DNA from: a virus
Length of the DNA: 64,000 bases
IMG/VR virus record: IMGVR_UViG_3300020185_000014
Location: 1-64,000 of that record
Reading direction: 5' to 3' (one strand)
This document shows positions 1-64,000 of the stretch, piece by piece (the first letter of the stretch is position 1; each line of letters opens with the position of its first letter). The notes beneath the pieces were generated by a model that saw only the letters and a program-made list of their open reading frames with translations, was not told the origin of the DNA and did no database searches. The position numbers and the translations under genes were made by a program.

Positions 1-107
1 TCGTTTGCACCTAAGTCGGATAATCGTTCGATCTCGTTCCAGACATGGTCGAAACCAATAAAACGAGAATGTGGAAATGAAAACACTTTACTTCTTGTAG
101 TAACCAT
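1..107 (-). CDS. hsp20: Small heat-shock protein Hsp20/IbpA family, N-terminal part (runs off window edge)
   Basis: Hand translation from ATG at 107: MVTTRSKVFSFPHSRFIGFDHVWNEIERL, with an IbpA-type IGFD motif. AGGAGG RBS. Position downstream of regA matches marine T4-like phages. Confidence 0.8.
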   Translation of the reverse strand, partial: MVTTRSKVFSFPHSRFIGFDHVWNEIERLSDLGAN

Positions 108-112
108 TTTTG

Positions 113-134
113 CCTCCTAAGCATTTTAGCAAGG
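113..134 (-). promoter_or_regulatory. ROSE-like RNA thermometer hairpin sequestering the hsp20 Shine-Dalgarno sequence
   Basis: mRNA CCUUGCUAA-AAUGC-UUAGGAGG: the UUGCU motif pairs with the SD and leaves a bulged G. Confidence 0.7.
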
Positions 135-199
135 TTGTTGTCTATCGACCGGACAATTCCGCATCGACCCATTATATATACTATGTTTTTCTTTGAATG

Positions 200-230: not shown

Positions 231-241
231 TGTAAATTAGA

Positions 242-1989: not shown

Positions 1990-1996
1990 GTGTTCC

Positions 1997-2995: not shown

Positions 2996-3202
2996 TTAAC
3001 TCTCCTCAGATTGAGATTCAATTAGTTGAAGCAATGCAATGCTTTGGTCGCGTAACTGACCGATGGTTGCGAGTTCTTCGCCGCGGAAACCGCCACGACC
3101 TGCAACTGTATCAATTACAGCAACTGTACTTCGACAAACTCGGTTTGCCAGTTCAACTACTTCACTATTTGCTTCTTGCTTTGGTGCTTGTGTCTTAGCC
3201 AT
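2996..3202 (-). CDS. Small hypothetical protein between gp45 and gp44
   Basis: 68-aa ORF with GGAG RBS, co-oriented, IDTVAGRGGFRGEEL motif. Confidence 0.75.
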   Translation of the reverse strand: MAKTQAPKQEANSEVVELANRVCRSTVAVIDTVAGRGGFRGEELATIGQLRDQSIALLQLIESQSEES

Positions 3203-3908: not shown

Positions 3909-3937
3909 ATCTTACTTTTATTTTCGCTCAATGTCAA
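3909..3937 (-). promoter_or_regulatory. Sigma70-type promoter for gp45
   Basis: TTGACA-N17-TAAGAT on the minus strand, just upstream of the gp45 RBS. Confidence 0.7.
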
Positions 3938-4344
3938 GAGAAAAACTGGTCTAACAAATTTTTGTTTTGCTTTGGATGCGGTTTCTTTTTGGTTGGAGTT
4001 TTGACTATTGATAGTTCTCCAAAATCTAAAAGGTTTGTTTGCTCTTCGACGGGACGGTTTCGTTTGAGATATGCTCGCTTTGCAGATGCAATACTTCCAT
4101 TATATTGTTTATAACATGTAGCGCATAACTCTCGAAGATCGTCAGCATGCGATGTATATCCCCGTTTTACTTTAGATTTTTTATAGAAGGCTGTTATGGA
4201 AAAACGTTTACCGCATCCCCAGAGGCACAATTTTGTGTGCATTGTGTTATACCCAAACAAGGTTCTCGCATACAAACCACCTTGAGTAGTCGTCCGTGTG
4301 TGGACTCCTGGCGTTTCTTCTAACGATGTCACTTTATTAGACAT
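3934..4344 (-). CDS. Small basic Cys-containing protein (possible Zn finger), last gene of the modification cassette
   Basis: CLWGC and CATC pairs; TAATG overlap with glf; C-terminus LLDQFFS. Confidence 0.65.
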   Translation of the reverse strand: MSNKVTSLEETPGVHTRTTTQGGLYARTLFGYNTMHTKLCLWGCGKRFSITAFYKKSKVKRGYTSHADDLRELCATCYKQYNGSIASAKRAYLKRNRPVEEQTNLLDFGELSIVKTPTKKKPHPKQNKNLLDQFFS

Positions 4345-5360
4345 TACAATATTTCCTTTAAATATTTTTTTGATCCCGCTAATGATTGGTTAATTACTTG
4401 GTGCATATCCAGATACTGATAAGTCCCGCAACGACCGATAAAGGTCATGCGCTTGTTATCAATTTCTGTATATTTGTTATAAATCGCAGAGCTTAATCCG
4501 TCAGTAGTTTTGACAGGATAGTACCGCTCTTTCTGATTTGTTTTGTAATCACAGGGCCACTCATAGGTCAACGTTGTGAATCCTGGATTGTTTCCGTGAT
4601 TAGGAAAATTCTTCCACTCGGTGACCCTGGTCGGACCCTCCCATGTGGTGAAATTGGTAGTCGCCGTTTTAAATACATTCTTCTGGGGCAGCGTTACCGT
4701 TTGAAACTTGATTGATCTATACGGTAACTCGCCAAATATAAAATGATAATACTCGTCGATAGGCATGCTGTTAAAAGTATGCGTATATTCTTTTTCCATA
4801 TCATAAGAAAACGGTGTTTTAAGGCGAACAGAGATGTTCTCGTGATCTAAGATATTATCAATCAAAACGGTATAACCATCCTTCGGCATCTTCTGTATAG
4901 TGTCGTCGGGAAAATAATATTCATTGTAATCATCACGAACAGGAACGCGCTCTAATATTTTCGGATTTAGTTCTTCCAGAGAAATCCCCCACATTTTCTT
5001 TGTATACGGTTTAAAGAATATGTCGGCAACGTTCTCTTCTCCCACGAGCATCGATGTTTCTTTGTTTACTGGCAGAGTATAATATTCCCCATCGGTATGC
5101 AACGCTAAGACTTTATGCTTGTAATCGACCCACTCGGTATACTGAGACAACCACTTAAACACTCTTTCGTTACTGGTGTGAAAAATATGCGGTCCATATT
5201 TATGAACCCTGATATTATCTTCATTAAGATAATCAAACGCATTACCGGCGGTATGGTCCCGCGAATCAATCACGTCAACTCTTGCCCCTGCTTCAGCAAG
5301 TTCTCGAGCATAGACTGCGCCAGCAAACCCAGCGCCGACAACCAGATACTTCCTATCCAT
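4344..5360 (-). CDS. glf: UDP-galactopyranose mutase
   Basis: FAD motif VVGAGFAG, HKYGPHIFHT, RYYPV, FIGRCGTYQYLDMHQVI. Confidence 0.93.
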   Translation of the reverse strand: MDRKYLVVGAGFAGAVYARELAEAGARVDVIDSRDHTAGNAFDYLNEDNIRVHKYGPHIFHTSNERVFKWLSQYTEWVDYKHKVLALHTDGEYYTLPVNKETSMLVGEENVADIFFKPYTKKMWGISLEELNPKILERVPVRDDYNEYYFPDDTIQKMPKDGYTVLIDNILDHENISVRLKTPFSYDMEKEYTHTFNSMPIDEYYHFIFGELPYRSIKFQTVTLPQKNVFKTATTNFTTWEGPTRVTEWKNFPNHGNNPGFTTLTYEWPCDYKTNQKERYYPVKTTDGLSSAIYNKYTEIDNKRMTFIGRCGTYQYLDMHQVINQSLAGSKKYLKEIL

Positions 5361-6381
5361 TCAAATAGTCCTCAACTTGTTTGATTGTTATTTGTTTATT
5401 CATAGGTTGAGATTCATAATACGCTATTTTTTGCTCGAAAGCAAGTTTTTCTAACTGACCTTCCGAAAGTTGTTCAATTTTCTTACAAGTCAAACCAATA
5501 TAAGGTTCGCCGAATATTGATGCTTCTTTATCATCGCAGATTAAAATTGACTCACAATCAGCAACTTGTTGCGGTCTCGCACGCCACCAACCAGAACCAG
5601 CATGCCAGTATCCTGCCATTAGAATACCCCATTGCTCATTGAAGGTCGTTACCATATCTTCTTCCGATAATCGAACTTGTTTTTTATTTTTAGATCCATA
5701 TTGTTTGATCTCCCACTTTGCTTCTGCGGTGATTCGGTTAAACCACTTCTCGGTCTCGGACTGAATCAATCCAGCAAAGTTAAAGATCTTTGCTTTATCG
5801 TCATCAAACAATGTTGTTCTAGGTTTGCGGTGTAGCGTGAACGGCGGCGGAAACCAAGAATGGATTTTATCGTTATCCCAATCAGAAAATAACATTTTAA
5901 AATCGCCACCCAAATGCGCAGGTAATGTGATAGGTCGATCCATGTTTGCTATCATGGTAAATGCTTTTTTGAAATCCGCTTTCCACTCTGGGCGAAGTTC
6001 TTTTTCAGCAACAACATTATTGACGTAATAATCGTTCGTGACCGAATCGACGACTTTGTCAATATTGTTTTTCCATGTATTAATGTTCTTGGGAGATTGC
6101 CAATCTTCAATAGCAAAAAGAACATCGTCGCGTTGAGCGATAGTCCAAAGCGCGCTGTAGATATGCGTGTTAAATGGAGATATGTGCATTAGAAACACAA
6201 CCACCTTATCATAAACAGATAAGTCCTCGCCGATCCTAACAGGTCTCTGTTCTACTTCATGCCCCATAGACTCAAGGCATTCGACTAGACTGAAATGGGC
6301 AGTACATAAACCGATCTGAGAAGACTTATGAAAATTCTTCGTACAAGCGGCGCGTGTGAACCCTGTGATTAATACTTTCAT
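5353..6381 (-). CDS. Probable glycosyltransferase (GT-B fold, candidate DNA glycosyltransferase)
   Basis: Rossmann-like start MKVLITG...LESMGHEV. A second beta/alpha domain (FNFAGL, IKQYG, WGILM...WWRAR) gives a size and layout like T4 beta-glucosyltransferase. Lies between sugar-nucleotide genes. Family is inferred. Confidence 0.62.
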   Translation of the reverse strand: MKVLITGFTRAACTKNFHKSSQIGLCTAHFSLVECLESMGHEVEQRPVRIGEDLSVYDKVVVFLMHISPFNTHIYSALWTIAQRDDVLFAIEDWQSPKNINTWKNNIDKVVDSVTNDYYVNNVVAEKELRPEWKADFKKAFTMIANMDRPITLPAHLGGDFKMLFSDWDNDKIHSWFPPPFTLHRKPRTTLFDDDKAKIFNFAGLIQSETEKWFNRITAEAKWEIKQYGSKNKKQVRLSEEDMVTTFNEQWGILMAGYWHAGSGWWRARPQQVADCESILICDDKEASIFGEPYIGLTCKKIEQLSEGQLEKLAFEQKIAYYESQPMNKQITIKQVEDYLNG

Positions 6382-6408
6382 CCGTTACCTCAATTTAATT
6401 GAAAGACT

Positions 6409-6437
6409 ATTATGACATATTATTACAAAAAAGTAAA
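6409..6437 (-). promoter_or_regulatory. Sigma70-type promoter with extended -10, upstream of the glycosyltransferase
   Basis: TTTACT-N17-CATAAT with TG just upstream of the -10; GAGG RBS downstream. Confidence 0.6.
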
Positions 6438-6457
6438 GCGGTAAGTCGTTGATTTTA

Positions 6458-7348
6458 TTATTGTTTTTGTTCTAGGATGTATTGATCCAAACACATGTCC
6501 TGGATTGTGCGCTTTAGAGTAATTCTCTCTGATAAATTAGTAACCTTACAAGAGATCGCGTCTCCTGCACGTCTAGGCGCAACCTCATAGGGCAATAGGA
6601 TGCCTGTTGCATCATAAAATGCGTTATAGACATCCCATACGGTGAAACCCTTATTAGACCCCAATTCTTCATATTCAGTATTCAAAGGTCCATTCGCGCA
6701 TGCAGACTCAATAGCATCAGCAAGATCCAAGACGTGTACATAATCTCTAACGCATGTTCCGTCTTCCGTCGGATAATCATCACCAAATATTTGTAACGTT
6801 TCCCTTCTCTTGCAAGCAACTTCTGCCATTACACGGATGAGGTGTGACGCTGGACCGAGTTGTTTGAGGTTCCCGTCTGATCCGGAAACGTTGAAGAATC
6901 TAAAGATCGTCCACTCTTTACCAAATTTATTTTTCCTAATTGCCCACTCAGCACAGGTTTTAGATAAAGCATAAGGCGAAGCGTTTTCTAAGGAAGAAGA
7001 ACTGCCCGCAAAAATAATATGTTTCGCATTAATGTGCTCGAGCACTTCCTGAGTGCCTCTGATATTGGCATCAAAATATTCAAACGGGACTTCAATCGAA
7101 GGGGCGACTAAGTTCCTTCCCGCAAGATGAACACAAACGTCAAACTCAGTTTCCATTAAATCGCGATTCGTTATTTTGCAGATATCTTCTTTATAGAAGA
7201 TGTTACAGTAATTCTCGATTTCGTTATACTCATCATAAACGCCATAAGAATCTAAACCAGTTACTTTATATCCACGAGTTCTTAATATTTTAACAACATG
7301 TGATCCGATGTAACCTGCCGCACCCGTGACTAAAACTTTTTTGCTCAT
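6458..7348 (-). CDS. galE: UDP-glucose 4-epimerase (extended SDR)
   Basis: VLVTGAAGYIG, catalytic YALSK, RFFNVSG, DGTCVRDYVHVLDLA. Start moved to ATG 7348 (TGATG overlap with the TET gene, GGAGG RBS). Confidence 0.92.
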   Translation of the reverse strand: MSKKVLVTGAAGYIGSHVVKILRTRGYKVTGLDSYGVYDEYNEIENYCNIFYKEDICKITNRDLMETEFDVCVHLAGRNLVAPSIEVPFEYFDANIRGTQEVLEHINAKHIIFAGSSSSLENASPYALSKTCAEWAIRKNKFGKEWTIFRFFNVSGSDGNLKQLGPASHLIRVMAEVACKRRETLQIFGDDYPTEDGTCVRDYVHVLDLADAIESACANGPLNTEYEELGSNKGFTVWDVYNAFYDATGILLPYEVAPRRAGDAISCKVTNLSERITLKRTIQDMCLDQYILEQKQ

Positions 7349-8661
7349 CAGAAAAATGCCTCCAAGGTTGATGTTTGCGGGTGATACTCTTCGAGTAAGT
7401 CTTCGCCGCCGTTGGTTCTCAAGTAGTCGTACCATTCTTCGCTCTGCCACATCTTCGCAGTGACGCCATTAAACTTAGGATCAGACGAAGCGAGTCTCCT
7501 CGAAGTTACAAAATTGTATCGTTGTTGCTCATATTCCCAAGACCCCAAGTCGATCATGTTTTCTCTAAAATAACACACCAAAGAGATACGCTCCATATCC
7601 TCAACGGTTTTTCCTGCTGGGGGAATGATTTCTGTGTTACCATGGATGCCTTCGTGATTATTGATTAATAACACATCTCCTGGTCGAACATTAATCGCGA
7701 TGCGGTATTCCGGAAGAACTAGATATCCCCCCTCCCATTCTTTTTCTTTAGACACGACTGTTAAGTTTGAGAAACCTTCGGTCAAATCACCAGCGTCTCG
7801 ATGCGCTGCAGTTCTGAAGTTCTTATTAACAGTTATTGTAGTGAATGGCGTATTCTTACCGGCAACTCTAAATCTAGGGTCAATCTTATCAGCATAGGTT
7901 TCTTGGGCGGCATGCCGTGTCGGCATTAATTGAGAAAATTGCTCTGCGAGAGTCATCATAAAAGGAAAACATTTTTTATACAAATCAGGATTCTTTTCAG
8001 TGTATGACGTTGCTCGACCATATGGTATTCTTGGATACCGATCAAAGAAACCGGCGATGCCGGAATTAACAGCATTGGCATATGTCGTGTCAGAAATATA
8101 TTTCGTTTTTACATGGAGCGCATCTGCAGATGCCTCATCCGAGGGCATGGACTTCCACATCTCTACTTTATGATTGAAGAAATCCTCATAAGTGAAACCT
8201 TCGTCTGCAATTTTACTTCGCAACCAAACCATGCCTCTGGTAGATTCTACTGGATTTCTTTTATGCCTAAGTTCTATTTCTGTAATGGGATCATCGCCGA
8301 ATATGTTAATCTGATCATTAATAACACAATCAAGAATATCCCATTGTACTGCAGTAACCCAATCGCGATTGCCGAGTTTTCCTTGTTTCGGACCTGCCGC
8401 CATGCCTCTATTTTGAGTAGGTTGGGCAGCACTGACCAGACCCTCGTATGCCCAGAGTTGTTCTCGCGCCGAGAATACGTTTTTCCTGAACTTAAAGATA
8501 CATTCGCTTTCTGATAACTCGGAGTTATCTCCATCGAGCGCACCCACTTTATAAAAATCTACGTCATCTTCAATAAGAGTATCATAATGACTTTCGTCGA
8601 GATACTTACCAAGTAAGTTTGTACAATCGTGTTTGTGCGTGGCTACAATAACCTGCGTCAT
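7348..8661 (-). CDS. TET/JBP-family 2-oxoglutarate/Fe(II) 5-methylpyrimidine dioxygenase
   Basis: FTTITVNKNFRTAAHRDAGD (HxD), LLINNHEGIHGNT (distal His), ERISLVCYFRE (2OG-binding Arg). Confidence 0.88.
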   Translation of the reverse strand: MTQVIVATHKHDCTNLLGKYLDESHYDTLIEDDVDFYKVGALDGDNSELSESECIFKFRKNVFSAREQLWAYEGLVSAAQPTQNRGMAAGPKQGKLGNRDWVTAVQWDILDCVINDQINIFGDDPITEIELRHKRNPVESTRGMVWLRSKIADEGFTYEDFFNHKVEMWKSMPSDEASADALHVKTKYISDTTYANAVNSGIAGFFDRYPRIPYGRATSYTEKNPDLYKKCFPFMMTLAEQFSQLMPTRHAAQETYADKIDPRFRVAGKNTPFTTITVNKNFRTAAHRDAGDLTEGFSNLTVVSKEKEWEGGYLVLPEYRIAINVRPGDVLLINNHEGIHGNTEIIPPAGKTVEDMERISLVCYFRENMIDLGSWEYEQQRYNFVTSRRLASSDPKFNGVTAKMWQSEEWYDYLRTNGGEDLLEEYHPQTSTLEAFF

Positions 8662-15416: not shown

Positions 15417-15454
15417 AATGATCTCTAAGAGATTCTTTTTTATTATTACAGATA

Positions 15455-19172: not shown

Positions 19173-20945
19173 TTATACAGATACTTGATGACGAACAACC
19201 TTATAAGAAGGTTGTTCAGCACTTTCTGCGACAGCAGAAAGTTCTACAACAGATCCACTAATAGCAGCAGAGAATGTTGCGAGTACGCCATTAGACTTAA
19301 TCACACCAAACTCAGTAGTCATAGCAGTTGAGCTACCATCATGCAATACCAAGATCTCAGAAGTCTGGTACTTATTACCAGAAGAGACCTGAATTGTGAA
19401 TCGAGCAGAACGCCAGTCCGCGATCGCGAATGACGAAATCACCTGAGTTGCTCCTGCAGATCCAGCAGCAGGGGTAGCGCTAGTGTCAATCAAAGCGACG
19501 TCGTCAATCTTAACAGAACTGAATTGAACGTCGTCAGTTGTTGCTACTGCCTGGCCGATTGCAATTACACCAGTTGCTGGAGTATATGTTACGCCAGTAC
19601 CAGCAGAAATAGCATTTTTAGCATCAGAGTCTGCGCGCGATGCAGTATAGTACAACTTATCGCCTTCAGCGAGGTCAGTTGTTGACATAGTACCAAAGTC
19701 TGAATCAAAGCGTACTGTCTGATAGAACAACTTATCGCCTTCAGCGAGGTCAGTTGTTGACATAGTACCAAAGTCTGAGTCAAAGCGTACTGTTTGGTAG
19801 AACAACTTATCGCCTTCGGCGAGGTCGGTTGTTGACATAGTACCAAAATCGCTATCGAAGCGTACTGTTGTATAGTACAACTTATCGCCTTCGGCGAGGT
19901 CAGTCGTTGTCTTAAGGGCAAAATCGCTATTGAAGTAAGAAGTTTTGTAATACTTATTCGTCAGACCTTCGGACAAATCGTCTGATGTCTTAGTACCAAA
20001 GTCTGAATCAAAGCGTACTGTCTGATAGAACAACTTATCGCCTTCGGCGAGATCAGTTGTCGACTTATCACCAAAATCGCTATCAAAACGTACTGTTGTA
20101 TAGAACAACTTATCGCCTTCAGCAAGATCAGTCGTCGACATAGTACCAAAGTCTGAGTCGAAACGTACTGTTGTATAGAACAACTTATCGCCTTCAGCAA
20201 GATCAGTTGTCGAGTTATCACCAAAATCGCTATCAAAACGTGCTGTTGTATAGAACAACTTATCGCCTTCGGCGAGATCAGTTGTCGACATAGTACCAAA
20301 GTCTGAATCAAAACGTACTGTTGTGTAGTACAGATTAGTTGAACCTTCAGTAACATCATCAGTTGTATTGGTCAAAGAACCAAAAGTCAACGCGCCTGTT
20401 ACTTCCATAGCAGCAGACATAGTAACGTTCTGCGATGAGTCACCAGCAATAGAGATATTACCTTGACCATCTGCGACGATTAACTGATTGTCTTTTCCAA
20501 CAATCGTTGATCCGCTAGCACGACCAATAATCGTGTTTGAACTTTCGCTAGTGAGAGAAGAACCTGCTTCGTCACCGATAATTGTGTTACCAGAACCGGT
20601 GCTTAGGGAAGCAGCGCCAGACTCACCGACTACGACGTTATCTACGCCGGATGAGATTGAAGCCAATACCCCGTCACCGAGACCAGTATTAGATGAGTTT
20701 GTTAAACCGAGTAAGAATGTGTCGCTATCATTAGCGGGTGCGAAATTCTGCGAAGCAGAATCCCACTTGATGATCTGGCCATCAGTAATATTACTGATGT
20801 TAACATCAACCATATCGGCAATGCTACCAGTTCCTGCGACGGTTTCCAAACCAACATTTGAAATTTGAATCTGAGCGAGCGAATCGAATGCGAGTACGCT
20901 TCCAATTCTAAGACCGCCTAGAATTTCGAAATCTTGTTTAGCCAT
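19173..20945 (-). CDS. Virion fibre-like protein with ten 25-aa repeats
   Basis: NxxxG beta-roll repeats, ten copies of TTDLAEGDKLFYxTVRFDSDFG, and a C-terminal domain similar to that of the neighbouring collagen-like gene. Confidence 0.75.
   Translation of the reverse strand: MAKQDFEILGGLRIGSVLAFDSLAQIQISNVGLETVAGTGSIADMVDVNISNITDGQIIKWDSASQNFAPANDSDTFLLGLTNSSNTGLGDGVLASISSGVDNVVVGESGAASLSTGSGNTIIGDEAGSSLTSESSNTIIGRASGSTIVGKDNQLIVADGQGNISIAGDSSQNVTMSAAMEVTGALTFGSLTNTTDDVTEGSTNLYYTTVRFDSDFGTMSTTDLAEGDKLFYTTARFDSDFGDNSTTDLAEGDKLFYTTVRFDSDFGTMSTTDLAEGDKLFYTTVRFDSDFGDKSTTDLAEGDKLFYQTVRFDSDFGTKTSDDLSEGLTNKYYKTSYFNSDFALKTTTDLAEGDKLYYTTVRFDSDFGTMSTTDLAEGDKLFYQTVRFDSDFGTMSTTDLAEGDKLFYQTVRFDSDFGTMSTTDLAEGDKLYYTASRADSDAKNAISAGTGVTYTPATGVIAIGQAVATTDDVQFSSVKIDDVALIDTSATPAAGSAGATQVISSFAIADWRSARFTIQVSSGNKYQTSEILVLHDGSSTAMTTEFGVIKSNGVLATFSAAISGSVVELSAVAESAEQPSYKVVRHQVSV
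19618..20366 (-). repeat. Coding tandem repeat, 75-nt unit, about 10 copies
   Basis: CAACTTATCGCCTTC recurs every 75 nt; two units are diverged. Confidence 0.9.
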
Positions 20946-46065: not shown

Positions 46066-47697
46066 CTATACTGCTTTGGTAGATATGTTCAATACCGTAT
46101 CAGAATTGATTGGACTGTATAGATATTTTCCTGCACCCCCGAGCAAAGAGCGATAGTTCGCTGGATCGTGCGACGGTTCTGATATCTCGCCGTTAATAGC
46201 ATTATTCATAATCCACGCTTTCGCTTGCTCCGGAGTTGCTTGTGGATTGATTTGTAACATCATAGCAAGGACGCCCGCGACTTGCGGAGCCGCTTGACTG
46301 GTACCGGAGTAGACCCCAGACTTGAATGTCGTATTTGGCGGATATGGCCAAGCATTGATATTATTGCTCGCAAACCCTGCGGCAATTTTAGTGCCAGGAG
46401 CATATATGTCCACACCTGGACCAGTTTCGGAACTTTCGTTTTTCTGTTCTTTATTATTGCTTTTATCGACATCACGGTCAATATTACCAACGACAATAAC
46501 TTTGCTAAGAGTTTCTTTTTGCGATGTTGTAGTGCCGAGTGCTGCACCGCCTGGACCCTTTCCGCGGTTGTAAAAATAAGTTACACCGCTGACGACTACA
46601 GAGTTATCGTGATCCTGTCCGCCATCGAGATCGACTTTAAACGACCTGTTACCAGCGCTGGTGATATAGTGGATACCGTCATCAATAGCGTCTTCAATCT
46701 CCGCTTGAACGGCACTCGAAAAACTGTTAAACCTACGGTTCGTCGTTGCCCCTTGTGCAAAAGGATCTACAAACCCAAGCGCCGCGCGTTTTGCTTGTGT
46801 GTTGATCGCTGTGCCGGTGTATGTTGATCCTCGGTATGTGATTGAAGTGACATCTGAAAAATTGTATGATCTTGAATAAGACCAACTTGCATTAACAACG
46901 GTCGGGCGTTTTACACCGAGATTCGCGTCAACAGATTTATTATTATGCCATGCCCGAAGTAGTTGGAAAGAAACCAACGGGTCAATTTTCCATGAGGAAG
47001 TGATGTTAGTTAGATCGTAAATTGCTGCATTCTTCGCCCATCCATACTGTTTTCCGGCGACAATACTAGCGCAATGCGTACCGTGATTGTCTAATCTGGT
47101 GGCGCTGTAGTAATTACTAGGGAGCGATCCTGAGACTCCTGGAGTAGAATACCAGTCGTATTCTACAACTCGACTATTACCGTCGGCGTCGTTGAATTCG
47201 GGGTGGGTTAAGTGTACTCCAGTATCTTGAATCACTACGTCAACACCAGTTCCATCTAAGACATAACGATGATTGTCGTCGCTGGGTAAAATTCCATTAG
47301 CGCCATTGGGTCCCAAATCATCCCCATGCCAATTCGGCCATAATGCATTGTCTTTCTCAACAACGCGACGAAGACCCCAGTTGGTGTAATCCGCAAACCC
47401 TGGAACAACAAATTTGTCGAACCTGCCTGTTTGGATAATATCGGGTTCGATCATTAAAGTTTCGTCATCGTCAAAGGGTAACTCGATCGCAACAACGCGA
47501 GAGTCTAACCTTAATAACGCTGCTTCTTCATCCGATAACATATAGACTGTATTTCTTCTAGATAAAGGCATCGCGTCAGCAACATCTATGGGTCTAGCGG
47601 GTATGGTTTCAGAACCAAATGCACTGACCATTTCTTGATTAAATTGCCCAACATCAATACCCTTTACGAGAGTTACAATATATTGTTTTTCCGACAT
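46066..47697 (-). CDS. Subtilisin-like serine protease (S8) with N-terminal prodomain
   Basis: Catalytic triad motifs VVIQDTG, HGTHCAS, SGTSQAAPQVAG; oxyanion-hole SAGN. Confidence 0.92.
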   Translation of the reverse strand: MSEKQYIVTLVKGIDVGQFNQEMVSAFGSETIPARPIDVADAMPLSRRNTVYMLSDEEAALLRLDSRVVAIELPFDDDETLMIEPDIIQTGRFDKFVVPGFADYTNWGLRRVVEKDNALWPNWHGDDLGPNGANGILPSDDNHRYVLDGTGVDVVIQDTGVHLTHPEFNDADGNSRVVEYDWYSTPGVSGSLPSNYYSATRLDNHGTHCASIVAGKQYGWAKNAAIYDLTNITSSWKIDPLVSFQLLRAWHNNKSVDANLGVKRPTVVNASWSYSRSYNFSDVTSITYRGSTYTGTAINTQAKRAALGFVDPFAQGATTNRRFNSFSSAVQAEIEDAIDDGIHYITSAGNRSFKVDLDGGQDHDNSVVVSGVTYFYNRGKGPGGAALGTTTSQKETLSKVIVVGNIDRDVDKSNNKEQKNESSETGPGVDIYAPGTKIAAGFASNNINAWPYPPNTTFKSGVYSGTSQAAPQVAGVLAMMLQINPQATPEQAKAWIMNNAINGEISEPSHDPANYRSLLGGAGKYLYSPINSDTVLNISTKAV

Positions 47698-50700: not shown

Positions 50701-51710
50701 GAATCAATTAGAGTGATGATGTGCTCAGAATCTAATCCAAGCGATGTGATCGTTTTCCAAACTGCCCCGCCGGTTCCGCTTGAAATAAAGTATTGCCCTG
50801 CATGTTCTGCCTGATCGACTAGGTCTTCAAGGTCGATAGTTTGTATCTTAGCATCAACAACATCATTCAAATATGCAGAGTCGACATACTGCGGTCTCGC
50901 CCGCTGAATGAAAGCAGAATCAACGATCGATAGGATAAAATAAGAATCACAAAATTCACTTATCAAATCAATAACTGCGGGCGAGTCGACAGTTCCCACA
51001 CCGCCACCGCCGCCGGTGTTAGTAACTCTAGCATCAATATAGGCGGTATTGACTGTTTGTGTTATTAGATTAATTGCAGCGACTGAATCAATATTGGTAT
51101 CGACCCGAGCGTTGATATAGTCAGAATCGATTAAAGTTATTATTCTATCTGAGTCGAGACCTAGCGAACCGAACGTTTGCCATCTAAATGAGTTGTCGCC
51201 GTTGCTGATAAGAAACTGATCATTCAACCCAGGACTTCCAATAAAGTCCATTATGTCGATAACTTGAATCGATGCATCAATGGCATCATAAATCGGATCA
51301 AAGTTGACTCGAGTATTTACATAGTCCGAGTCAACTAACTGAATTATCTCAGAAGAATCTAACCCAATTCCAAGTCGAATCAACGACCAATTATCTTTAG
51401 CGTTTAATAGATTACCTGTATTAGAATCGCGATATTCGCCCGCCAGCATACTGTACTTGTAGTATTGTTGCCCATCTATGGTAGACAAAGAATCGTGGGC
51501 AGAATCGATATTTGTTTTTTGAACATAAACGATCATGCCGTCTTGCAATCGCTGCCCGCTGATGTTAGATAAACGATCCGCGGAGTCGCCTGTTATTGTA
51601 CGAATCCCGCCGCGAATTTCTGCATCGAGAACAATTGGGTGTTTAGCAGAAGGACTCCACGTTCCTGGCCATTGGTTGATCGTCAACCCATATGTATCTT
51701 TAACCGCCAT
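47724..51710 (-). CDS. Large acidic fibre-like protein with many IDSDYINAR repeats
   Basis: Recurrent LIDSDYINARV and GxxGQ(Y/F)LxSxGxG..W modules with poly-Gly hinges. Confidence 0.75.
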   Translation of the reverse strand: MAVKDTYGLTINQWPGTWSPSAKHPIVLDAEIRGGIRTITGDSADRLSNISGQRLQDGMIVYVQKTNIDSAHDSLSTIDGQQYYKYSMLAGEYRDSNTGNLLNAKDNWSLIRLGIGLDSSEIIQLVDSDYVNTRVNFDPIYDAIDASIQVIDIMDFIGSPGLNDQFLISNGDNSFRWQTFGSLGLDSDRIITLIDSDYINARVDTNIDSVAAINLITQTVNTAYIDARVTNTGGGGGVGTVDSPAVIDLISEFCDSYFILSIVDSAFIQRARPQYVDSAYLNDVVDAKIQTIDLEDLVDQAEHAGQYFISSGTGGAVWKTITSLGLDSEHIITLIDSDYVNARTEINSATIQTIIDQAYIESQITQSFLVNTLPEDFGAGGGIDSLATLSLIDSAYILTIVDSAFIQNARPQYVDSAYLNDIVDAKLQVFNLTDNLTNEPGLTGQYLKYDGHSSFTWKTLIEFDSELITGIFNTTSLNSAQLLQTTNAIPLIVDSDYVNDRIDFNLSSFIDSVGAPADVLHAKGDGTYYWSRLDKDSDTIIQITNIVKGNVEIPGVELPNVLDSAQIIAFIDADYINARATFEIDSGEVVDIIYETVDSAFFYQTVVDVSSALVDAKIQSIDLGDIVGGNGNAGQYLKSLGNGDTTWVNLSVEIEDQIKNTSVDSLEVLNLINSSYINSLVDPSTITTIIDSDYINFRVDAVVGGGGVGTVDSPAVIDLIIETVDTSFLTPLVISTINTTATDLVQATIQTLDVGDLVGGNGSTGQFLVSRGNGQANWATFGSFGLDSNSIYNLIDSDYINNRVSFDSNETIQLIDSDYILSRITFELGNVSGVDSVATIDLIHKNSIDSLEAVNLIQEIGLDSAEITQFVRDLIQANIQVIDFNEVFGIGYGAQGTYLRSAGGSNFDWSVIQVDSSVVVPTVLDVLDSAFLQTAITPGFINDRIDRSLFLDSSEAIQLIDSDYINARVVPAVDSLAVIGLIDSDYINARVDPAVDSLGVLALIDSDYINSRIETGTDSSTVLDIVLAEINALDIGDIIGDNGVAGYYLKSLGNGHAEWTEVVAGGGGGGGGLTQNQVLALIDGNTFDSADVTGIINSSYVTGIINSSYVTGIINSSYVTGIINSSYVTGIINSNYINATIDRSLFLDSSEAIQLIDSDYINARVVPAVDSLGVIGLIDSDYINSRIETGTDSSTVLDIVLAEINALDIGDVVGDNGSAGQLLKSAGNGSATWETGIVPKIGGSLTLGETPAWSGSIGIDSASKIAAGQYSITFTTPYNAITDYSVITTYQGNNATGATGASVRNFATHFDIFTSFDSGAVSVLIYQF
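48310..48437. repeat. Perfect 27-nt coding tandem repeat, 4.7 copies (VTGIINSSY)
   Basis: GAGTTAATTATTCCAGTGACATATGAC repeated without spacers. Confidence 0.92.
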
Positions 51711-53810: not shown

Positions 53811-55733
53811 TTATTGTAATCCGCCACCGCCAAAACCACCACCTTCGATATCAGATAATGCTGTTGCCTGCAACGACCATTGCGTATCCACTACTCTATC
53901 CGTTTCGCCGCTTTTGCTAAAAGTTAATCTTACACTTCCATCGTTTTGTTGGTTTATTTCTCCTTCGCTAGTTCCAGAAAGGGCAGTGAGTCCGAACCAT
54001 AACGCTCTCTTTCCCTTACTTCCGGATGTAACTCCTTGAGCAGAAGTAGTGATACCATCAAAATTATCATCAACGGTAGAGTGGTTTGCGACAAATGTTA
54101 TTGCCCTTGCAGTCGGTGATGTCTCCCAATTGACTTGCTCGCTCAACGAATACTTAACGGTCCATCCGGCAGAAGCAATATCGTTCAACCTAAAACATTC
54201 TCGTCTATTACTATAATCTGTTCCGGTTTCTGGTATCGCAGTCATCGTACTCGTGTTGGTGGTTCCTTCGGATTTATATAAAATAGACACGGTGCTGCTA
54301 TTTCCAGCACCGGTCAGAACAGTACCTGCCCCAGCGGCATATACTATAATGTCCGACCCAGATTCTTCAACCATTAAATATCCTTCGCATCTAGATGCGG
54401 CAGTAGTACCACCAGTAGATACAATACTGCTCATGGAAACTGTATATGGGTTTGTTGAATGGAGCGGATAAACATCCATAGTAGAAGTCACCGGATCCGA
54501 CGCCGTCGAACTGGTATCGTTAATGACAACAGTATCGGATACGCTTCCAGTTGCTGTAGAATTACTATCTGTCGATGCTAATGTTAGGGTTACAGTTTCT
54601 GCACCTTCGGTCGTAGCATCAGCGTTTGCTGTAAACGAAACAGAACCAGTGTTGTTATTGATTGTAATTGTACCAGTTAGTGAAGACAAACTAATATCGT
54701 TTACAGAAACCCCAGTGATTGTATATCCGACCGTCACCCCATTTGAGATATTCGCAGTCGTCACCGTAAAGGTCGCGGCAGAAGAACCATCTTCATTGAT
54801 CGAAGCAACGTCAAAGATTCCGCTAACATAAGTTGGTACGGCAGGTGTCGTGCTAGTATCGTTAATGACAACAGTATCGGATACGCTTCCAACGTCCAAT
54901 GCTAAGGTCAACGTCTCCGCGCCTTCGGTCGTAGCATCAGCGTTTGCTGTAAATGAAACAGAACCAGTGTTGCTATTAATTGTAATTGTTCCGGTTAAAG
55001 ATGGTAGACTAATATCGTTTGCTGTAATTCCTGTGCCGGAAATAGTGTAACCGAGATTCGTACCATTCGGAACATTCGCAGTCGTCACCGTAAAGGTTGC
55101 TGCAGAAGAACCATCTTCATTGATCGAAGCAACGTCGAAGGAACCTGCATATGTTGCTGATGCGGGTGTTAAACTCGTATCAGTAACTTCTATGGTAGCT
55201 GTGTCGAGAACATTGGAATAACCTGTATCTGTTGATAATGCAACTTCCAGAGTAAATGATTCGGTTCCCTCGGTTGTATTATCTTCAACAACTTCGACTG
55301 TAAAACTTTGTGAAGAAATATTGAATGGCGCGCCGCTAAAGACGGTACTGAACGATCCCGAACTTGCAGTAAAATCAGATCCTCCGGACACGATTCTCCA
55401 GATAAAAGTTTTCGCTCCGCCAGAGTTATTTTCTATGAATGAGAAGGTTTGCTGGCGATCATTAGTTTCGTTCTTTATTACAGATTCCGGCGTTAATGCA
55501 TATGAAGAATAGACGACACCATACTCCGCGTTTCTAAATTCGTGTATACTAATCGTCGACGCATCTGTTGCATCGATACCCGTCCCGTGCAAGTCAGAAT
55601 AGGTTGCGTTCAAAGTGAGACCGGTCGCATTGCGAATATCGGTATCGTTTAACGAAACTTCTGTCTGGTGGGTTCCTCCGACAGCAACGTGGATATCGTT
55701 AAGCGATATATCATTTATTGGTATATTAGCCAT
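53811..55733 (-). CDS. Fibre-associated adhesin-like protein with duplicated Calx-beta-like modules
   Basis: N-terminal ISLNDIH..GG...SLND; two near-identical FDVASINEDGSSAATFTVTT...ADATTEGAET modules. Confidence 0.65.
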   Translation of the reverse strand: MANIPINDISLNDIHVAVGGTHQTEVSLNDTDIRNATGLTLNATYSDLHGTGIDATDASTISIHEFRNAEYGVVYSSYALTPESVIKNETNDRQQTFSFIENNSGGAKTFIWRIVSGGSDFTASSGSFSTVFSGAPFNISSQSFTVEVVEDNTTEGTESFTLEVALSTDTGYSNVLDTATIEVTDTSLTPASATYAGSFDVASINEDGSSAATFTVTTANVPNGTNLGYTISGTGITANDISLPSLTGTITINSNTGSVSFTANADATTEGAETLTLALDVGSVSDTVVINDTSTTPAVPTYVSGIFDVASINEDGSSAATFTVTTANISNGVTVGYTITGVSVNDISLSSLTGTITINNNTGSVSFTANADATTEGAETVTLTLASTDSNSTATGSVSDTVVINDTSSTASDPVTSTMDVYPLHSTNPYTVSMSSIVSTGGTTAASRCEGYLMVEESGSDIIVYAAGAGTVLTGAGNSSTVSILYKSEGTTNTSTMTAIPETGTDYSNRRECFRLNDIASAGWTVKYSLSEQVNWETSPTARAITFVANHSTVDDNFDGITTSAQGVTSGSKGKRALWFGLTALSGTSEGEINQQNDGSVRLTFSKSGETDRVVDTQWSLQATALSDIEGGGFGGGGLQ

Positions 55734-60900: not shown

Positions 60901-63186
60901 TTGAGTGACGCTGATGTCTTTAGCGTCGAACGTATTTGCATTAAGAACAACTTTGTACAATGTCAAAGCATTCTCGGGAGTTGCTTTGAATTTAGGATGT
61001 TCATCTTGCTCACCCATCAGTAACGAGAGTTCACCGTTCTGATCAATCAGCACTTTATCCGCTCTTGGTAAATAGTATTCAACATCCGCAGTTAAGTTAT
61101 TGGTGTTAGGCGGCAACTCTTTAGTGTTAACAAACGTTCCGTCAGCATTTTTGTCTGGGCGAAAATCAATTACATTCCGCAGAGAAACTTTCGTGCCGTC
61201 TGTTTGTGTGTAAGTTGGAATATCTTTATAATCAATACCGCTGAAAGATTGCGAAGAATAAAAATTACCGGAAGACGTTCTTGTAAAATATTTAAACTTA
61301 ACAAAAATCGAAGTCGTCGGAGCGTCAGTCTCTTTTAGGATTAACCGCCCTTGCTCGTAGTAGTTATCTCGCTGTCCGTCGTCTAACGCAAACATAGGAG
61401 ATAGATCTTCGCCGCTAATATCGACAGCTGTAATTTGACTAACCGAGTAAATGTCGAAGAGACCGAGGTCGACATACCGCGTACCGTCCGAACCAGTCGT
61501 TAATGAATACGTTTGCTGATGTTCGACTAAATTCTTCATCGCAACCGCGCCGCTTGAATTGTTCACTACGGCATAGATTGTATAATTGATGTTTAAACTT
61601 AATCCTGATATTTGAGCAGTTCGATTGTTGTTCGAAAGCGTAACCGTCAATGCTTGTCGCGTTGTCGAATCACGGGCAGCGATCCAAGAAGATGTGTCTG
61701 TAAAAGATTCTGTTCCACTAACAGAAATCGTTGCAGTGCCCGATGAATTTGTTAGAGATACGAACGCGCGTTGGGTGTTAATACTGATTGAAGTAATCGA
61801 TCCTGGTCTTGGTCTTGGCAATGAGAACAATAAATTGTCGTTCGCAGCATCTTGCATTTTCAGACCCTGTGCGGATGAAGCAACCACAGTAAAATATTTA
61901 CCTGTGTCTCCGACGCTGCGGATATCTCGTAATTGACCTGTGGTCATAACAACATCAAGAAGATATACTTTTAAATTCGCCCCATGCGTCTCGACCGATT
62001 TGATCTTTGCTGTGCCGGCGGCACCGGTAGCATTTGATGATGTGTATAAATTAACAGAACTGAATAACGATGGTAAACCTTGATTGCCGTCGGCGATTAG
62101 ATAATTTCCATAATCAACATTAATTGAATTGTTTTGTACTGTTTGAGTTTTGGTTGGTTTCGGAAACACTAACCGAGTCGACGATGGCGTGTGCGCTCTA
62201 TGACCTTTAACATATGCAGTACCAGCAGATACCACTAAATCTAATTTAGATGCATCTGTGTTATCTTCCATATGCATAAAGAACGGTTCTGAAATATAAT
62301 TACCAGATTCTTCAAACGTTCTTTGTGCGAGAAGATTTTTGATTTGATTATAACCTTCGAAAGAAGATACAGTATCGACAATGATATTATTCTCAACTGA
62401 CGCAACCTTGATGAAGGTTTCATCTGATTGCACGTCTGATTCTTCAACCAAGACTAAGTTGATTCTGTATCGATCTGCGCCAGGAGATGAAGTGTTCGGG
62501 TTATCGCCAGCATTATCGTACAAAGTAGAATCGTCGTCGACAGTTACAATATCCTGTACTACTTTATATCCAACTGAAGCATTGATACCGCTGCTTGTAT
62601 ATTTGCTCAAGAAAATACTTTGTTTACTAGCATGGACAAAATGACCGACCGCAAAAAAGTCACCCTCGTCGATGGTAAATTCTGTTCCGCTTCCGACTTC
62701 AGAGACGGTCATTGACCAACCGCCGCCGACTAAGATCTCTCCAGGAATAAATTCTGTGGTGGTTGCGCCCGTATTTTCAGTACCCTGTGAAATGTATTGG
62801 ACATAAACTGTATTTGGATCAGAGTTCGCTGCAGAAACAGCAAGGATTATCTTCGCCTCAATTCCCGCAGCACTGCCCGTGACTGTTAATCCAGCGGGTA
62901 TTGCCGAAAAAGAAGTTTGACCAGATGGCGCCGAGAAAGCAGAAATTTTAGCAAACCGTTTCTTCGAGTTAATGTGGGTCGAACCGGCATTAACCGCAGC
63001 GCCGCCTTTAAAGACGTTCTCGCCGAGTCTTTGCATTTCTTTTTGAAGGATAGTTTGAAGTTGCGTTAATTCTCTTGCTTGCAGCGCTTTGCCGCTCCTG
63101 AAAAGAATTTTATGAAATCCTTTTTCTTCGTCCCAATCATCCTTATAGGTTGTTGAGAGAGTATTCTTATTGTACGTCGTTGGCAT
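57919..63186 (-). CDS. Large virion structural protein (DUF4815/VrlC-like)
   Basis: KILFRSGKALQARELTQLQTILQ, PGADRY, RTFEESGNY, PMAQSFYV; follows gp8. Confidence 0.85.
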   Translation of the reverse strand: MPTTYNKNTLSTTYKDDWDEEKGFHKILFRSGKALQARELTQLQTILQKEMQRLGENVFKGGAAVNAGSTHINSKKRFAKISAFSAPSGQTSFSAIPAGLTVTGSAAGIEAKIILAVSAANSDPNTVYVQYISQGTENTGATTTEFIPGEILVGGGWSMTVSEVGSGTEFTIDEGDFFAVGHFVHASKQSIFLSKYTSSGINASVGYKVVQDIVTVDDDSTLYDNAGDNPNTSSPGADRYRINLVLVEESDVQSDETFIKVASVENNIIVDTVSSFEGYNQIKNLLAQRTFEESGNYISEPFFMHMEDNTDASKLDLVVSAGTAYVKGHRAHTPSSTRLVFPKPTKTQTVQNNSINVDYGNYLIADGNQGLPSLFSSVNLYTSSNATGAAGTAKIKSVETHGANLKVYLLDVVMTTGQLRDIRSVGDTGKYFTVVASSAQGLKMQDAANDNLLFSLPRPRPGSITSISINTQRAFVSLTNSSGTATISVSGTESFTDTSSWIAARDSTTRQALTVTLSNNNRTAQISGLSLNINYTIYAVVNNSSGAVAMKNLVEHQQTYSLTTGSDGTRYVDLGLFDIYSVSQITAVDISGEDLSPMFALDDGQRDNYYEQGRLILKETDAPTTSIFVKFKYFTRTSSGNFYSSQSFSGIDYKDIPTYTQTDGTKVSLRNVIDFRPDKNADGTFVNTKELPPNTNNLTADVEYYLPRADKVLIDQNGELSLLMGEQDEHPKFKATPENALTLYKVVLNANTFDAKDISVTQVDHRRYTMADIRDLENKVDKLEQSTSLSFLEMESKLSQLFDSDGELRLESGFVVDDFSDQIGSDTGSKEYSGAIDPESKTLRPGFDEDNIRLVIDNGSSSGVVVRGDNVYLSYDSASWKFNTLASKSIAVNPFNSHAYVGELTLSPASDDWKQTGVGSNHAIDGATRFDTNEALLWNEWEWNWSGRSGEDLHQPAESVYPRNQNGVGARAGLPAKDTYTSSAAKPSDRHSSAGHVNRVFFSETIRTRYGNNYVDVALVPWIRSKKVFFKVSGLKPNTRFIPFFDGKRFDDWCREESTFVRVSETNDDLGGTYADLGIVSHPDGSTPLVSDQKGEIIGSFFIPSTTTNRFRAGRKEFKLLDITTNDYNAAGSKAVAHYTTAGVFDNNQQNVTSTRDVEPVSAVYSNTSMPISYRGRDIRNYLDGIDPADIMLEQPHLIGENQQAVAGVNPSTYAANMSAILSDYVNTDTNQLSLTSTDAVSVSENPMAQSFYVDNQFGVVLTKIDLFFSAKDDYLPVMLKLRPIINGAPSTEIAVPGSSVVVNSADVNVVVETSSTLLATVASSPTSFVFEEPIYLSPWTEYALVVSSPSSDYKIYVGDVKDYVLGSTSKKVASQETTGQFFMPQVGTTWNPSGAMNLMFSTSRASFKTNGSLLLNNASVPGKLLKENPIKTTNGSDVVTVKHMCHGLDVGEQAIISGLTPTTTYAGIIGSALNGNHTITAAGIDGYSFNVGTSATLSSYVGGTKVVAGRNIQFDVLNVKSDNIIPNSTSVVVSSKLSTGKSISGSETKYVQDTFFSRISSNENNTYANPRIIANGTNETAYMSGNSSATIKVDLKSGNDYVSPVVDLQRCSLTLVGNCIDNNSNLDTVSETDPRDGTAAAKHITNVYDLVNDAVGAQVLFKYNLPPEADIEVYYRTGTDGQNIRDLNWVSIATESRLVHSASASAFSEAEALPGGIGGTLPSFNRAQFKIVMKSTNSSAVPMIKDLRIKFLAT

Positions 63187-63194
63187 ATGTCACC

Positions 63195-64000
63195 TTACAG
63201 TTTAATTACAACTTTAACATCTTCAGTTTGATTTGGATCTCTAGTCACTGCCGCGATGTTGTTAATATAAATCATGTCACCAGAATATATATCAATATCT
63301 GGAGCAATGATTCCACCGGCCGGAAGCAATGTTCCTGACCCAGATCCCGCCCCCTCTTCTGCAGATATTGTTTCCCCTGCGTTAAAAGGCGTGAAACCTG
63401 TTGTTTGATTTTGATAGATCCACGCCATAGTATCATAATGAACCAAGTATGCTTTAGCGCCGGAAGTTTGCCCGACGATTACGCGGTCGCTCAAGAAATC
63501 ATTGGTTACACTAGCAAATTGTAATTTCTGCATGGCATTACCAGATTGATCGGTAAAATTCGCACCAAGAACTGAATTGTATTCTTTGGGGTTTTTAATT
63601 AATGCGACTTGTCTAAAATCATTTTCGGAAAGTATCGTACCGTTTTCTGTGTTTTCAAAATCCGAGTGAAACATCAACGCGTCGCATCGTAATGATTTAG
63701 TCGGGTCTGCTGAAACTCCAGCAGACGGTCCAAGAACAGCACGAACAGAAGCGCCGGATCCATTTCCAATGACCGTAACTTTAGAATTTTTATAACCCGA
63801 ACCATTTAAAACATTACCCGCACCGTCTAAATCTAATTTAACATGCGTAATTACACCGCCAGATAAATTTGCAGTAGCGCTCGCGCCGATGCCGCCCTCG
63901 GTAAAAACCAAATTAACGGTTCCGCTGTAACCCGATCCACCATCCAACACTTCAACACCGAGAATCGCGCCGGAGACTGCATCATCTTGTAATCTTTTTT
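63195..64000 (-). CDS. gp8: Baseplate wedge subunit gp8, C-terminal part (start outside window)
   Basis: NDFRQVALIKNP...YSGDMIYINN...RDPNQTEDVKVVI; the frame stays open to the window edge. Confidence 0.85.
   Translation of the reverse strand, partial: KRLQDDAVSGAILGVEVLDGGSGYSGTVNLVFTEGGIGASATANLSGGVITHVKLDLDGAGNVLNGSGYKNSKVTVIGNGSGASVRAVLGPSAGVSADPTKSLRCDALMFHSDFENTENGTILSENDFRQVALIKNPKEYNSVLGANFTDQSGNAMQKLQFASVTNDFLSDRVIVGQTSGAKAYLVHYDTMAWIYQNQTTGFTPFNAGETISAEEGAGSGSGTLLPAGGIIAPDIDIYSGDMIYINNIAAVTRDPNQTEDVKVVIKL

What the first reader, a model, noticed from the sequence alone, without database searches (positions are those of the whole stretch)
1..64000. Strong depletion of RGCY (AGCT, AGCC, GGCT, GGCC): possible footprint of the modification target
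Approximate hand tally: only 3 of about 85 GpC dinucleotides in 15421-16800 and 0 of about 40 in 41581-42300 are in RGCY context, against roughly a quarter expected. RGCR, YGCY and YGCR are all common. Several surviving sites sit at Met-Ala starts (about 3197, 20940, 24977, 34941, 55729). Phage TET/C5-methyltransferase pairs have been reported to act on GpC contexts, and RGCY is the CviJI-type site. Inference: RGCY is either the methylated and glycosylated motif, lost through 5mC deamination or the cost of a bulky sugar, or it is avoided because of a host restriction system.
Basis: partly seen in the sequence, partly recalled or inferred. Interest (0 to 1): 0.75.

Follow-up and report, generated by a model that had tools for sequence, protein, structure and literature searches.

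The report
RGCY sites purged from marine phage
This marine T4-like phage has removed about 90% of the four-letter DNA word RGCY by silent codon choices, most likely to escape a DNA-cutting enzyme, and related phages show that the purge does not depend on its TET DNA-modification gene cluster.

Summary
The window has 49 RGCY sites, against about 350 expected (Markov) or 690 (base composition). The whole 116-kb record has 88 among 5063 GpC. Shuffling synonymous codons within genes predicts 866±22 sites in coding DNA; 84 are seen. Total GpC is normal, and the missing sites reappear as YGCY and RGCR.

Survivors are enriched for sites that are unavoidable or favoured. Twelve are Trp-Pro (TGG CCN), the only context no synonymous change can remove. 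Six are Met-Ala gene starts.

The link to the TET/sugar cassette is not supported:
- Relatives with gp46 directly next to gp45 (no cassette) are purged as much or more.
- 65 of 80 TET-carrying relatives are not purged, including one with the same TET + partner + UDP-galactopyranose mutase cassette at the same junction.
- No C5-methyltransferase is found in the 116 kb or in a complete TET-carrying relative.

Relatives show GGCC-only, AGCT-only, AGCT+GGCC or full RGCY avoidance, and the trait changed at least four times on the gp44 tree. CCSGG is also nearly absent.

Best reading: restriction-type site avoidance against an RGCY-cutting nuclease. The host and the enzyme are unknown. This scan noted RGCY purges before in other T4-like phages and in a giant virus.

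The parts
1..64000 (.). Window-wide depletion of RGCY (AGCT, AGCC, GGCT, GGCC). It continues evenly over the whole 116,069-bp record.
   Evidence: 49 sites vs about 350 (Markov); codon-shuffle O/E 0.10; no regional relaxation.
3934..8661 (-). TET/JBP + epimerase + 342-aa partner + UDP-galactopyranose mutase + 136-aa ORF cassette between gp46 and gp45. Context only: it is purged like the rest of the genome and is not the cause.
   Evidence: PF12851 90.5 bits; PF01370; PF03275. 4 RGCY among 203 GpC. Cassette presence is independent of depletion in relatives.
4555..4558 (-). Residual GGCC forced by Trp-Pro (TGG CCC) in the mutase gene
   Evidence: Trp-Pro is the only dipeptide that cannot be encoded without RGCY.
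36680..36683 (-). Residual GGCC forced by Trp-Pro
46346..46349 (-). Residual GGCC forced by Trp-Pro
47336..47339 (-). Residual GGCC forced by Trp-Pro
51667..51670 (-). Residual GGCC forced by Trp-Pro
3197..3200 (-). Residual site at a gene start, ATG GCT (Met-Ala), ORF 2996-3202
20940..20943 (-). Residual site at a gene start, ATG GCT, ORF 19173-20945
24976..24979 (-). Residual site at a gene start, ATG GCT, ORF 24454-24981
34941..34944 (-). Residual site at a gene start, ATG GCC, ORF 34062-34946
55728..55731 (-). Residual site at a gene start, ATG GCT, ORF 53811-55733

Best explanation
RGCY is under purifying selection as a DNA word: this is restriction-type site avoidance. The phage is a marine T4-like myovirus with no DNA methyltransferase in the 116 kb held. 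It meets a nuclease that recognises the degenerate palindrome RGCY, the specificity known from chlorovirus CviJI. That nuclease is most probably part of a restriction system in its hosts.

Each lost site raises the chance that an infecting genome escapes cleavage. Selection has therefore removed every site it could by choosing synonymous codons according to their neighbours. It left sites that are unavoidable (Trp-Pro) or favoured for another reason (Met-Ala starts).

Shown here: the depletion, its codon-context nature, its independence from the TET cassette, its lability among relatives, and the linkage of the three word classes.

Inferred: that the selecting agent is a nuclease and that it belongs to the host.
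For: 1. Size and nature of the depletion. O/E is 0.10 against a codon-shuffle null, with normal total GpC (O/E 1.01). The missing ~780 sites reappear as YGCY (+361) and RGCR (+469). GCC, GCT, AGC and GGC codons are used freely, so this is codon context, not codon usage.

2. Survivors. 12 of 84 coding sites are Trp-Pro, the only unavoidable context. WP dipeptides are not depleted (12 vs 14 expected). 6 are ATG-GCY gene starts.

3. Orthologous positions. RGCY sites of non-purged relatives are kept in 2% of cases, against 15-25% for the control classes. Of 22 RGCY sites conserved among those relatives, 2 are kept. Losses are by Y>R at position 4 (8), G>A (4), C>T (2), G>C (1), R>Y (1) and multiple changes (4).

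4. One agent. Across 132 related loci the three word classes are purged together 11 times, against 0.8 expected if independent. Whenever the non-palindromic pair AGCC/GGCT falls below O/E 0.15, AGCT and GGCC are low too.

5. Mosaic typical of restriction avoidance. Relatives with GGCC only (28), AGCT only, AGCT+GGCC, or all. At least 4 state changes on the gp44 tree, including sister pairs that differ: L202 purged vs L213 not, support 95.

6. A second palindrome, CCSGG, is almost absent: 1 vs about 70-80 expected.

7. No methyltransferase of PF00145, PF01555, PF02086 or PF05869 in the record. Methyltransferases are rare in the clade.

8. Literature. RGCY is the most frequent methylated motif in marine viral MAGs, mostly myovirus-like (bioRxiv 10.1101/2021.05.08.442635). 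The motif is therefore contested in this habitat.
Against: - The host is unknown and no cognate nuclease was found.
- The only RGCY cutters named in the literature I read are chlorovirus enzymes (PMC3681635). A bacterial one is a prediction.
- 88 sites remain in 116 kb. A classical type II enzyme could still cut them, so the benefit must be per-site and probabilistic, or the enzyme must need site pairs.
- The record is only about 71% complete. A methylase or nuclease could lie in the missing part.
- Relatives are not independent samples.
Confidence: 0.6

Rival explanations
1. Several agents rather than one. Separate AluI-like (AGCT) and HaeIII-like (GGCC) restriction systems act together with a third pressure on AGCC/GGCT, and their effects add up to look like RGCY.
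For: Relatives exist with only GGCC (28 loci), only AGCT, or AGCT+GGCC purged. 4 loci have only AGCC/GGCT low.
Against: The three classes are purged together 11 times, against 0.8 expected if independent. Strong AGCC/GGCT loss (O/E below 0.15) never occurs alone. In this genome the three classes are purged to similar depth: 0.06, 0.10 and 0.19, the last about 0.12 without forced Trp-Pro.
Confidence: 0.12
2. Self-avoidance. The phage itself carries an RGCY-cutting nuclease that it uses to destroy host DNA, as chloroviruses use R.CviJI. It protects its own genome by lacking the sites instead of methylating them.
For: The trait is labile among relatives, as a mobile gene would be. 29% of the genome and many ORFs are unexamined.
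Against: 88 residual sites with no methylase would be self-lethal for an efficient nuclease. No gene of the record tracks depletion among relatives. The PD-(D/E)XK nuclease at genome 84926-85612 occurs mainly in unpurged relatives. Purged and unpurged relatives are syntenic over the 20 kb compared. No RE_HaeIII-like gene was found.
Confidence: 0.1
3. Mutational decay. RGCY is methylated to 5mC by a host or phage enzyme, and the sites are lost passively by deamination, without selection against the word.
For: G>A and C>T at the core account for 6 of 16 single-step losses. RGTY and RACY are modestly over-represented, at 1.20 and 1.09.
Against: 9 of 16 single-step losses are transversions at the outer R/Y positions, which deamination cannot make. 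The GpC total is unchanged and the sites reappear as YGCY/RGCR. Retention of exactly the unavoidable Trp-Pro sites and of start-codon contexts points to selection. No methyltransferase was found.
Confidence: 0.06
4. RGCY is the motif methylated, oxidised by the TET enzyme and glycosylated, and it is depleted because of that modification.
For: TET-associated phage C5-methyltransferases mostly target GpC[C/T] (PMC8256090), and RGCY is where both strands carry GCY. Two other cassette-bearing lineages are also purged: L099/L100 and L126.
Against: - Cassette-less relatives are purged equally.
- 65 of 80 TET+ loci are not purged, including L243 with the same cassette subtype and L083 with 78% gp23 identity.
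- No C5-methyltransferase is in the record or in a complete TET+ relative.
- Phage 5mYOX enzymes without a neighbouring C5-MT are predicted thymine dioxygenases (PMC13229309).
- YGCY, which a GCY methylase would also hit, is in excess.
Confidence: 0.04

Closest known systems
Restriction-site avoidance in phage genomes (palindrome avoidance against type II restriction-modification systems; classic examples recalled from memory: GGCC-poor Bacillus phages, GATC-poor phages)
   Same: A short, self-complementary word is removed far beyond what composition and codon usage predict, by synonymous changes and genome-wide. The pattern is lineage-specific, and a second avoided palindrome (CCSGG) sits in the same genome.
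   Different: The word is degenerate (RGCY, effectively 3 bp), so about 870 sites had to be avoided in 116 kb. No bacterial enzyme of this specificity is named in the literature I could read. About 10% of sites remain.
CviJI restriction-modification system of Chlorella virus IL-3A (R.CviJI cuts RG^CY; PMC3681635)
   Same: The recognition word is identical.
   Different: That system is encoded by a virus of eukaryotic algae and comes with a 5mC methylase. Here no methylase is found and the nuclease is hypothetical.
Phage C5-MT / TET (5mYOX) / glycosyltransferase hypermodification clusters (Burke et al. 2021, PMC8256090; O'Toole et al. 2026, PMC13229309)
   Same: A TET/JBP dioxygenase with sugar-nucleotide enzymes lies in the window. 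Published partner methylases prefer GpC[C/T].
   Different: There is no partner C5-methyltransferase. Cassette presence and RGCY depletion are independent among relatives. The enzyme more likely belongs to the methylase-independent (thymine) class.
RGCY methylation in marine myovirus-like viral MAGs (Hiraoka et al., bioRxiv 10.1101/2021.05.08.442635)
   Same: Same motif, same habitat and same broad virus type. This suggests RGCY is a contested word in marine virus-host conflict.
   Different: Those viruses keep and methylate the sites and carry several methylases. This phage clade rarely has methylases and deletes the sites instead.

Membership tests
Restriction-site avoidance | The word is a (degenerate) palindrome matching a known restriction specificity | tested here: met
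   RGCY is its own reverse complement. All four members are depleted while RGCR, YGCY and YGCR are not. RGCY is the CviJI site (PMC3681635).
Restriction-site avoidance | Depletion exceeds what base, dinucleotide and codon usage predict | tested here: met
   Markov O/E 0.08-0.24. Codon-shuffle O/E 0.10, z about -36.
Restriction-site avoidance | Removal by synonymous or context changes, with the protein sequence spared | tested here: met
   Trp-Pro dipeptides are not depleted (12 vs 14) and supply 12 of the residual sites. Codons containing GC are used freely.
Restriction-site avoidance | The host encodes a cognate nuclease | not testable with these tools
   The host is unknown. The phage is found only in marine metagenomes.
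Restriction-site avoidance | The phage lacks its own protecting methylase for the word | tested here: inconclusive
   No PF00145, PF01555, PF02086 or PF05869 in the 116 kb, but the record is about 71% complete.
Phage C5-MT/TET/GT GpC hypermodification cluster | TET/JBP dioxygenase | tested here: met
   PF12851, 90.5 bits, ORF 7348-8661.
Phage C5-MT/TET/GT GpC hypermodification cluster | Co-located C5-cytosine methyltransferase that sets the motif | tested here: not met
   None in the record. None in 39 of 40 relatives' contigs, including a complete 168-kb TET+ genome.
Phage C5-MT/TET/GT GpC hypermodification cluster | The motif footprint tracks the cassette | tested here: not met
   All four combinations of cassette and depletion occur.
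CviJI-type virus-encoded R-M | Virus-encoded RGCY 5mC methylase next to a nuclease | tested here: not met
   No C5-methyltransferase. The nuclease is not testable because no R.CviJI model was available to me.

The most novel reading that the evidence does not exclude
The purge is self-protection. The phage carries, in the unsequenced 29% or among its unannotated ORFs, an RGCY-cutting host-takeover nuclease like that of chloroviruses. It survives that nuclease without any methylase, by having deleted the sites, perhaps with the TET-derived sugar shielding the residual ones.
Probability: 0.07. Interest if true: 0.7.

Novelty: new member of a known kind. Interest (0 to 1): 0.35.

Why it matters
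The footprint predicts an RGCY-specific cutting activity in marine bacteria. This specificity is so far named only for chlorovirus enzymes. The prediction matches the report that RGCY is the most often methylated word in marine viral genomes.

About one in ten relatives of this phage carry the same purge, and sister lineages differ. The pattern could therefore serve as a host-range or defence marker for uncultured marine T4-like phages.

The result also removes a tempting but wrong inference: that the TET/sugar cassette targets RGCY.

Tried and rejected
- A single-sequence scan for the TET protein in viral contigs found nothing. An alignment query was needed.
- Megablast of 8 kb against cultured phages gave no match.
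- PF09491 was queried from memory as an AluI family but is RE_AlwI. It and RE_HaeIII gave nothing, and their controls also rang nowhere. These are no evidence of absence.
- Pfam scans of 20 ORFs beyond the window found one PD-(D/E)XK nuclease. Its homologues sit mostly in unpurged relatives.
- A gene-by-gene screen for window genes enriched in purged loci gave only counts of 2 vs 0. One of these (the 342-aa partner) is contradicted by L243.
- Population variants from four marine runs: 0 of 40 listed differences create an RGCY, against 1.6 expected. This has no power, and 160 further differences were not shown.
- The idea that unpurged relatives protect RGCY with their own methylases found no support. 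PF01555 is in 1 of 30 contigs and PF00145 in 1 of 40.
- An assembly or library artefact is rejected. The depletion is uniform, recurs in independent contigs of relatives, and near-identical DNA is held by runs of at least 12 studies.
Full report
**What the DNA is**

The window is the first 64 kb of a 116,069-bp IMG/VR virus record that CheckV rates about 71% complete. It is a T4-like myovirus:
- Pfam finds gp23 major capsid (484 bits), scaffold, prohead protease, UvsY, UvsW, gp46/gp47, the gp45 clamp and the gp44/gp62 clamp loader.
- By capsid protein the nearest records are Phage C48C1 (67%), Pelagibacter phage HTVC008M (60%) and Methylophilales phage Melnitz (60%).
- Near-identical DNA is held by marine and seawater metagenomes of at least 12 studies.

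**The observation**

| Scope | Observed | Expected |
|---|---|---|
| Window, Markov-2 | 49 | about 350 |
| Window, base composition | 49 | about 690 |
| Whole record, share of 5063 GpC | 88 (1.7%) | about a quarter |
| Coding DNA, synonymous codon shuffle | 84 | 866±22 |

- The other twelve NGCN words are at or above expectation.
- AGCT, AGCC/GGCT and GGCC are the most under-represented tetranucleotides under both null models.
- The 88 sites of the whole record are spread evenly along it.
It gives O/E 0.10, z about -36.
- Codons holding GC are used freely (GCT 567, GCC 285, AGC 348, GGC 605). The effect is therefore codon context, not codon usage.
- Total GpC is normal (O/E 1.01). The roughly 780 missing sites reappear as YGCY (+361) and RGCR (+469).

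**What survives**

- Trp-Pro (TGG CCN) is the only dipeptide that cannot be written without RGCY.
- It supplies 12 of the 84 coding sites. Trp-Pro itself is not depleted: 12 seen, 14 expected.
- Six more sites are ATG-GCY at gene starts.
- Selection has therefore acted as far as silent change allows and no further.

**Orthologous positions**

- Where unpurged relatives have RGCY, this phage keeps it in 2% of cases. The three control classes are kept in 15-25%.
- Among 22 RGCY positions conserved in at least 60% of unpurged relatives, 2 are kept, against 80%, 57% and 30% for the controls.
- The losses are Y>R at position 4 (8), G>A (4), C>T (2), G>C (1), R>Y (1) and multiple changes (4).
- More than half of the single-step losses are outer-position transversions. 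5mC deamination cannot make those.

**Is the TET cassette responsible?**

The cassette lies between gp46 and gp45. It comprises TET/JBP (7348-8661), an NAD-epimerase (6458-7450), a 342-aa protein without a Pfam family (5353-6381), UDP-galactopyranose mutase (4344-5360) and a 136-aa ORF. Three lines of evidence argue against a link.

1. *No methyltransferase.*
   - PF00145 gives no hit in the 116 kb.
   - It also gives none in 39 of 40 relatives' contigs, among them a complete 168-kb TET-carrying genome.
   - PF01555, PF02086 and PF05869 are absent from the record too.
   - Published work finds that phage 5mYOX enzymes without a neighbouring C5-MT group with thymine dioxygenases (PMC13229309).
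   - The methylases that partner the 5mC-oxidising phage TETs prefer GpC[C/T] (PMC8256090). Here YGCY is in excess.

2. *Cassette-less relatives are purged.*
   - I fetched 240 related loci through gp23, gp44 and a TET alignment.
   - In L203, L165, L202 and L168, gp46 is followed by gp45 within 55-82 bp.
   - Their RGCY counts are 2/94, 1/46, 6/75 and 5/48.
   - No TET domain is found in their contigs.

3. *TET-carrying relatives are mostly not purged.*
   - 65 of 80 TET-carrying loci are not purged.
   - These include nine with the cassette at the same junction.
   - L083 (gp23 78% identical, O/E 0.80) is among them.
   - So is L243, which has the same TET + 342-aa partner + mutase subtype between gp46 and gp45. 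Its counts are AGCT 69/76, AGCC+GGCT 90/110 and GGCC 7/39.

The cassette genes in this phage are themselves purged (4 of 203 GpC).

Caveat: some phages carry the TET gene elsewhere (L085, L086). Absence at the junction is therefore strong but not absolute evidence that a short contig lacks the cassette.

**Pattern among relatives**

Across 132 loci of at least 8 kb:

| Pattern (O/E below 0.3) | Loci |
|---|---|
| No depletion | 80 |
| GGCC only | 28 |
| All three word classes | 11 |
| AGCC/GGCT only | 4 |
| AGCT + GGCC | 3 |
| AGCC/GGCT + GGCC | 3 |
| AGCT only | 2 |
| AGCT + AGCC/GGCT | 1 |

- If the three classes were independent, 0.8 loci would lose all three.
- Strong loss of the non-palindromic pair AGCC/GGCT never occurs without loss of AGCT and GGCC.
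- Both points speak for one agent that reads RGCY.
- On a gp44 tree this phage sits in a well-supported 14-member clade (support 97) with 4 purged, 3 partly purged and 7 unpurged members.
- Its nearest neighbours there include the cassette-less purged L165 and L168, and L171/L180, which avoid only AGCT and GGCC.
- At least four changes of state are needed. L202 (purged) and L213 (not) are sisters with support 95.
- The trait is labile, as expected for pressure that changes with the host.

**A second avoided word**

CCSGG occurs once in 116 kb against 70-80 expected. It is also missing in C48C1, L202, L085 and L243.

**Explanation**

The best-supported reading is restriction-type avoidance of RGCY imposed by a nuclease the phage meets, most probably in its hosts.

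- The recognition word equals that of chlorovirus R.CviJI. The paper I read names only that enzyme for RGCY and calls such frequent cutters extremely rare (PMC3681635). A prokaryotic RGCY cutter is therefore a prediction, not a known fact.
- RGCY is the most frequent methylated motif in marine viral MAGs, mainly myovirus-like ones with several methylases (bioRxiv 10.1101/2021.05.08.442635). The same word is therefore under pressure in this habitat.
- This clade rarely carries methylases and seems to delete sites instead.

Weak points:
- The host and the enzyme are unknown.
- 88 sites remain.
- 29% of the genome is unseen.

**Rivals**

- Several enzymes rather than one.
- The phage's own host-takeover nuclease.
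- Passive deamination.
- The cassette-target idea.

Each is set out with its evidence in the Rival explanations section. None is favoured by the data.

**Earlier notes of this scan**

- RGCY purges were noted before in other T4-like phages. One follow-up (e1-5738406) reached the same conclusion on another genome.
- A purge was also noted in a giant virus with its own methylase-nuclease pair (e1-5502752).
- I tested the corresponding claims here independently.

**Verdict**

- The cassette interpretation is not supported.
- The restriction alternative is supported.
- This is a strong, clean example of a known kind of genome footprint with an unusual, degenerate target word.

Noticed in passing
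whole record; window 1-64000: CCSGG (CCCGG/CCGGG, the BcnI/NciI-type word) is absent from the window. It occurs once in 116 kb against 70-80 expected, while CCWGG is normal. It is also missing in relatives that keep RGCY (C48C1 0/12, L243 0/7).
   Followed up: partly
window 3934-8661: The TET/JBP gene has a conserved ~200-aa N-terminal extension and belongs to a family of more than 2700 full-length homologues. No C5-methyltransferase is found in this record or in a complete 168-kb relative. It is probably a methylase-independent (thymine?) dioxygenase feeding a galactofuranose-type sugar pathway. The 342-aa partner has no Pfam family but travels with TET and the mutase in L099 and L243.
   Followed up: partly
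gp44 tree, loci L132-L153 vs the window's clade: TET-carrying relatives with the cassette at the gp46-gp45 junction form a separate clade (support 99). The window's own clade otherwise lacks the cassette there. The cassette was probably acquired horizontally into the same junction.
   Followed up: no
L245:3029-5081 (genome 87029-89081): Three tandem family-25 glycosyltransferase genes (LPS-type). A DAHP/KDO8P-synthase-family gene lies at genome 110328-111110. This is a second sugar-related gene set outside the TET cassette.
   Followed up: no
L245:926-1612 (genome 84926-85612): A PD-(D/E)XK nuclease-superfamily protein. Its homologues are mostly in relatives that are not RGCY-purged.
   Followed up: yes
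whole record: GCTTA/TAAGC is under-represented (36 vs 130 under the codon shuffle), and CTTA/TAAG more mildly. Neither contains RGCY. Unexplained.
   Followed up: no
relatives L064, L039, L062, L030: A few AT-rich relatives show low AGCC/GGCT with normal AGCT and GGCC (for example L064: 12/37 vs 35/31 and 10/11). This could be a codon effect or a different, non-palindromic target.
   Followed up: no
relatives L140, L148, L131, L133 and others: Complete or near-complete absence of GGCC (0/30, 0/35, 0/30, 0/16) is common in the TET-carrying clade. L021 has no AGCT (0/34).
   Followed up: partly
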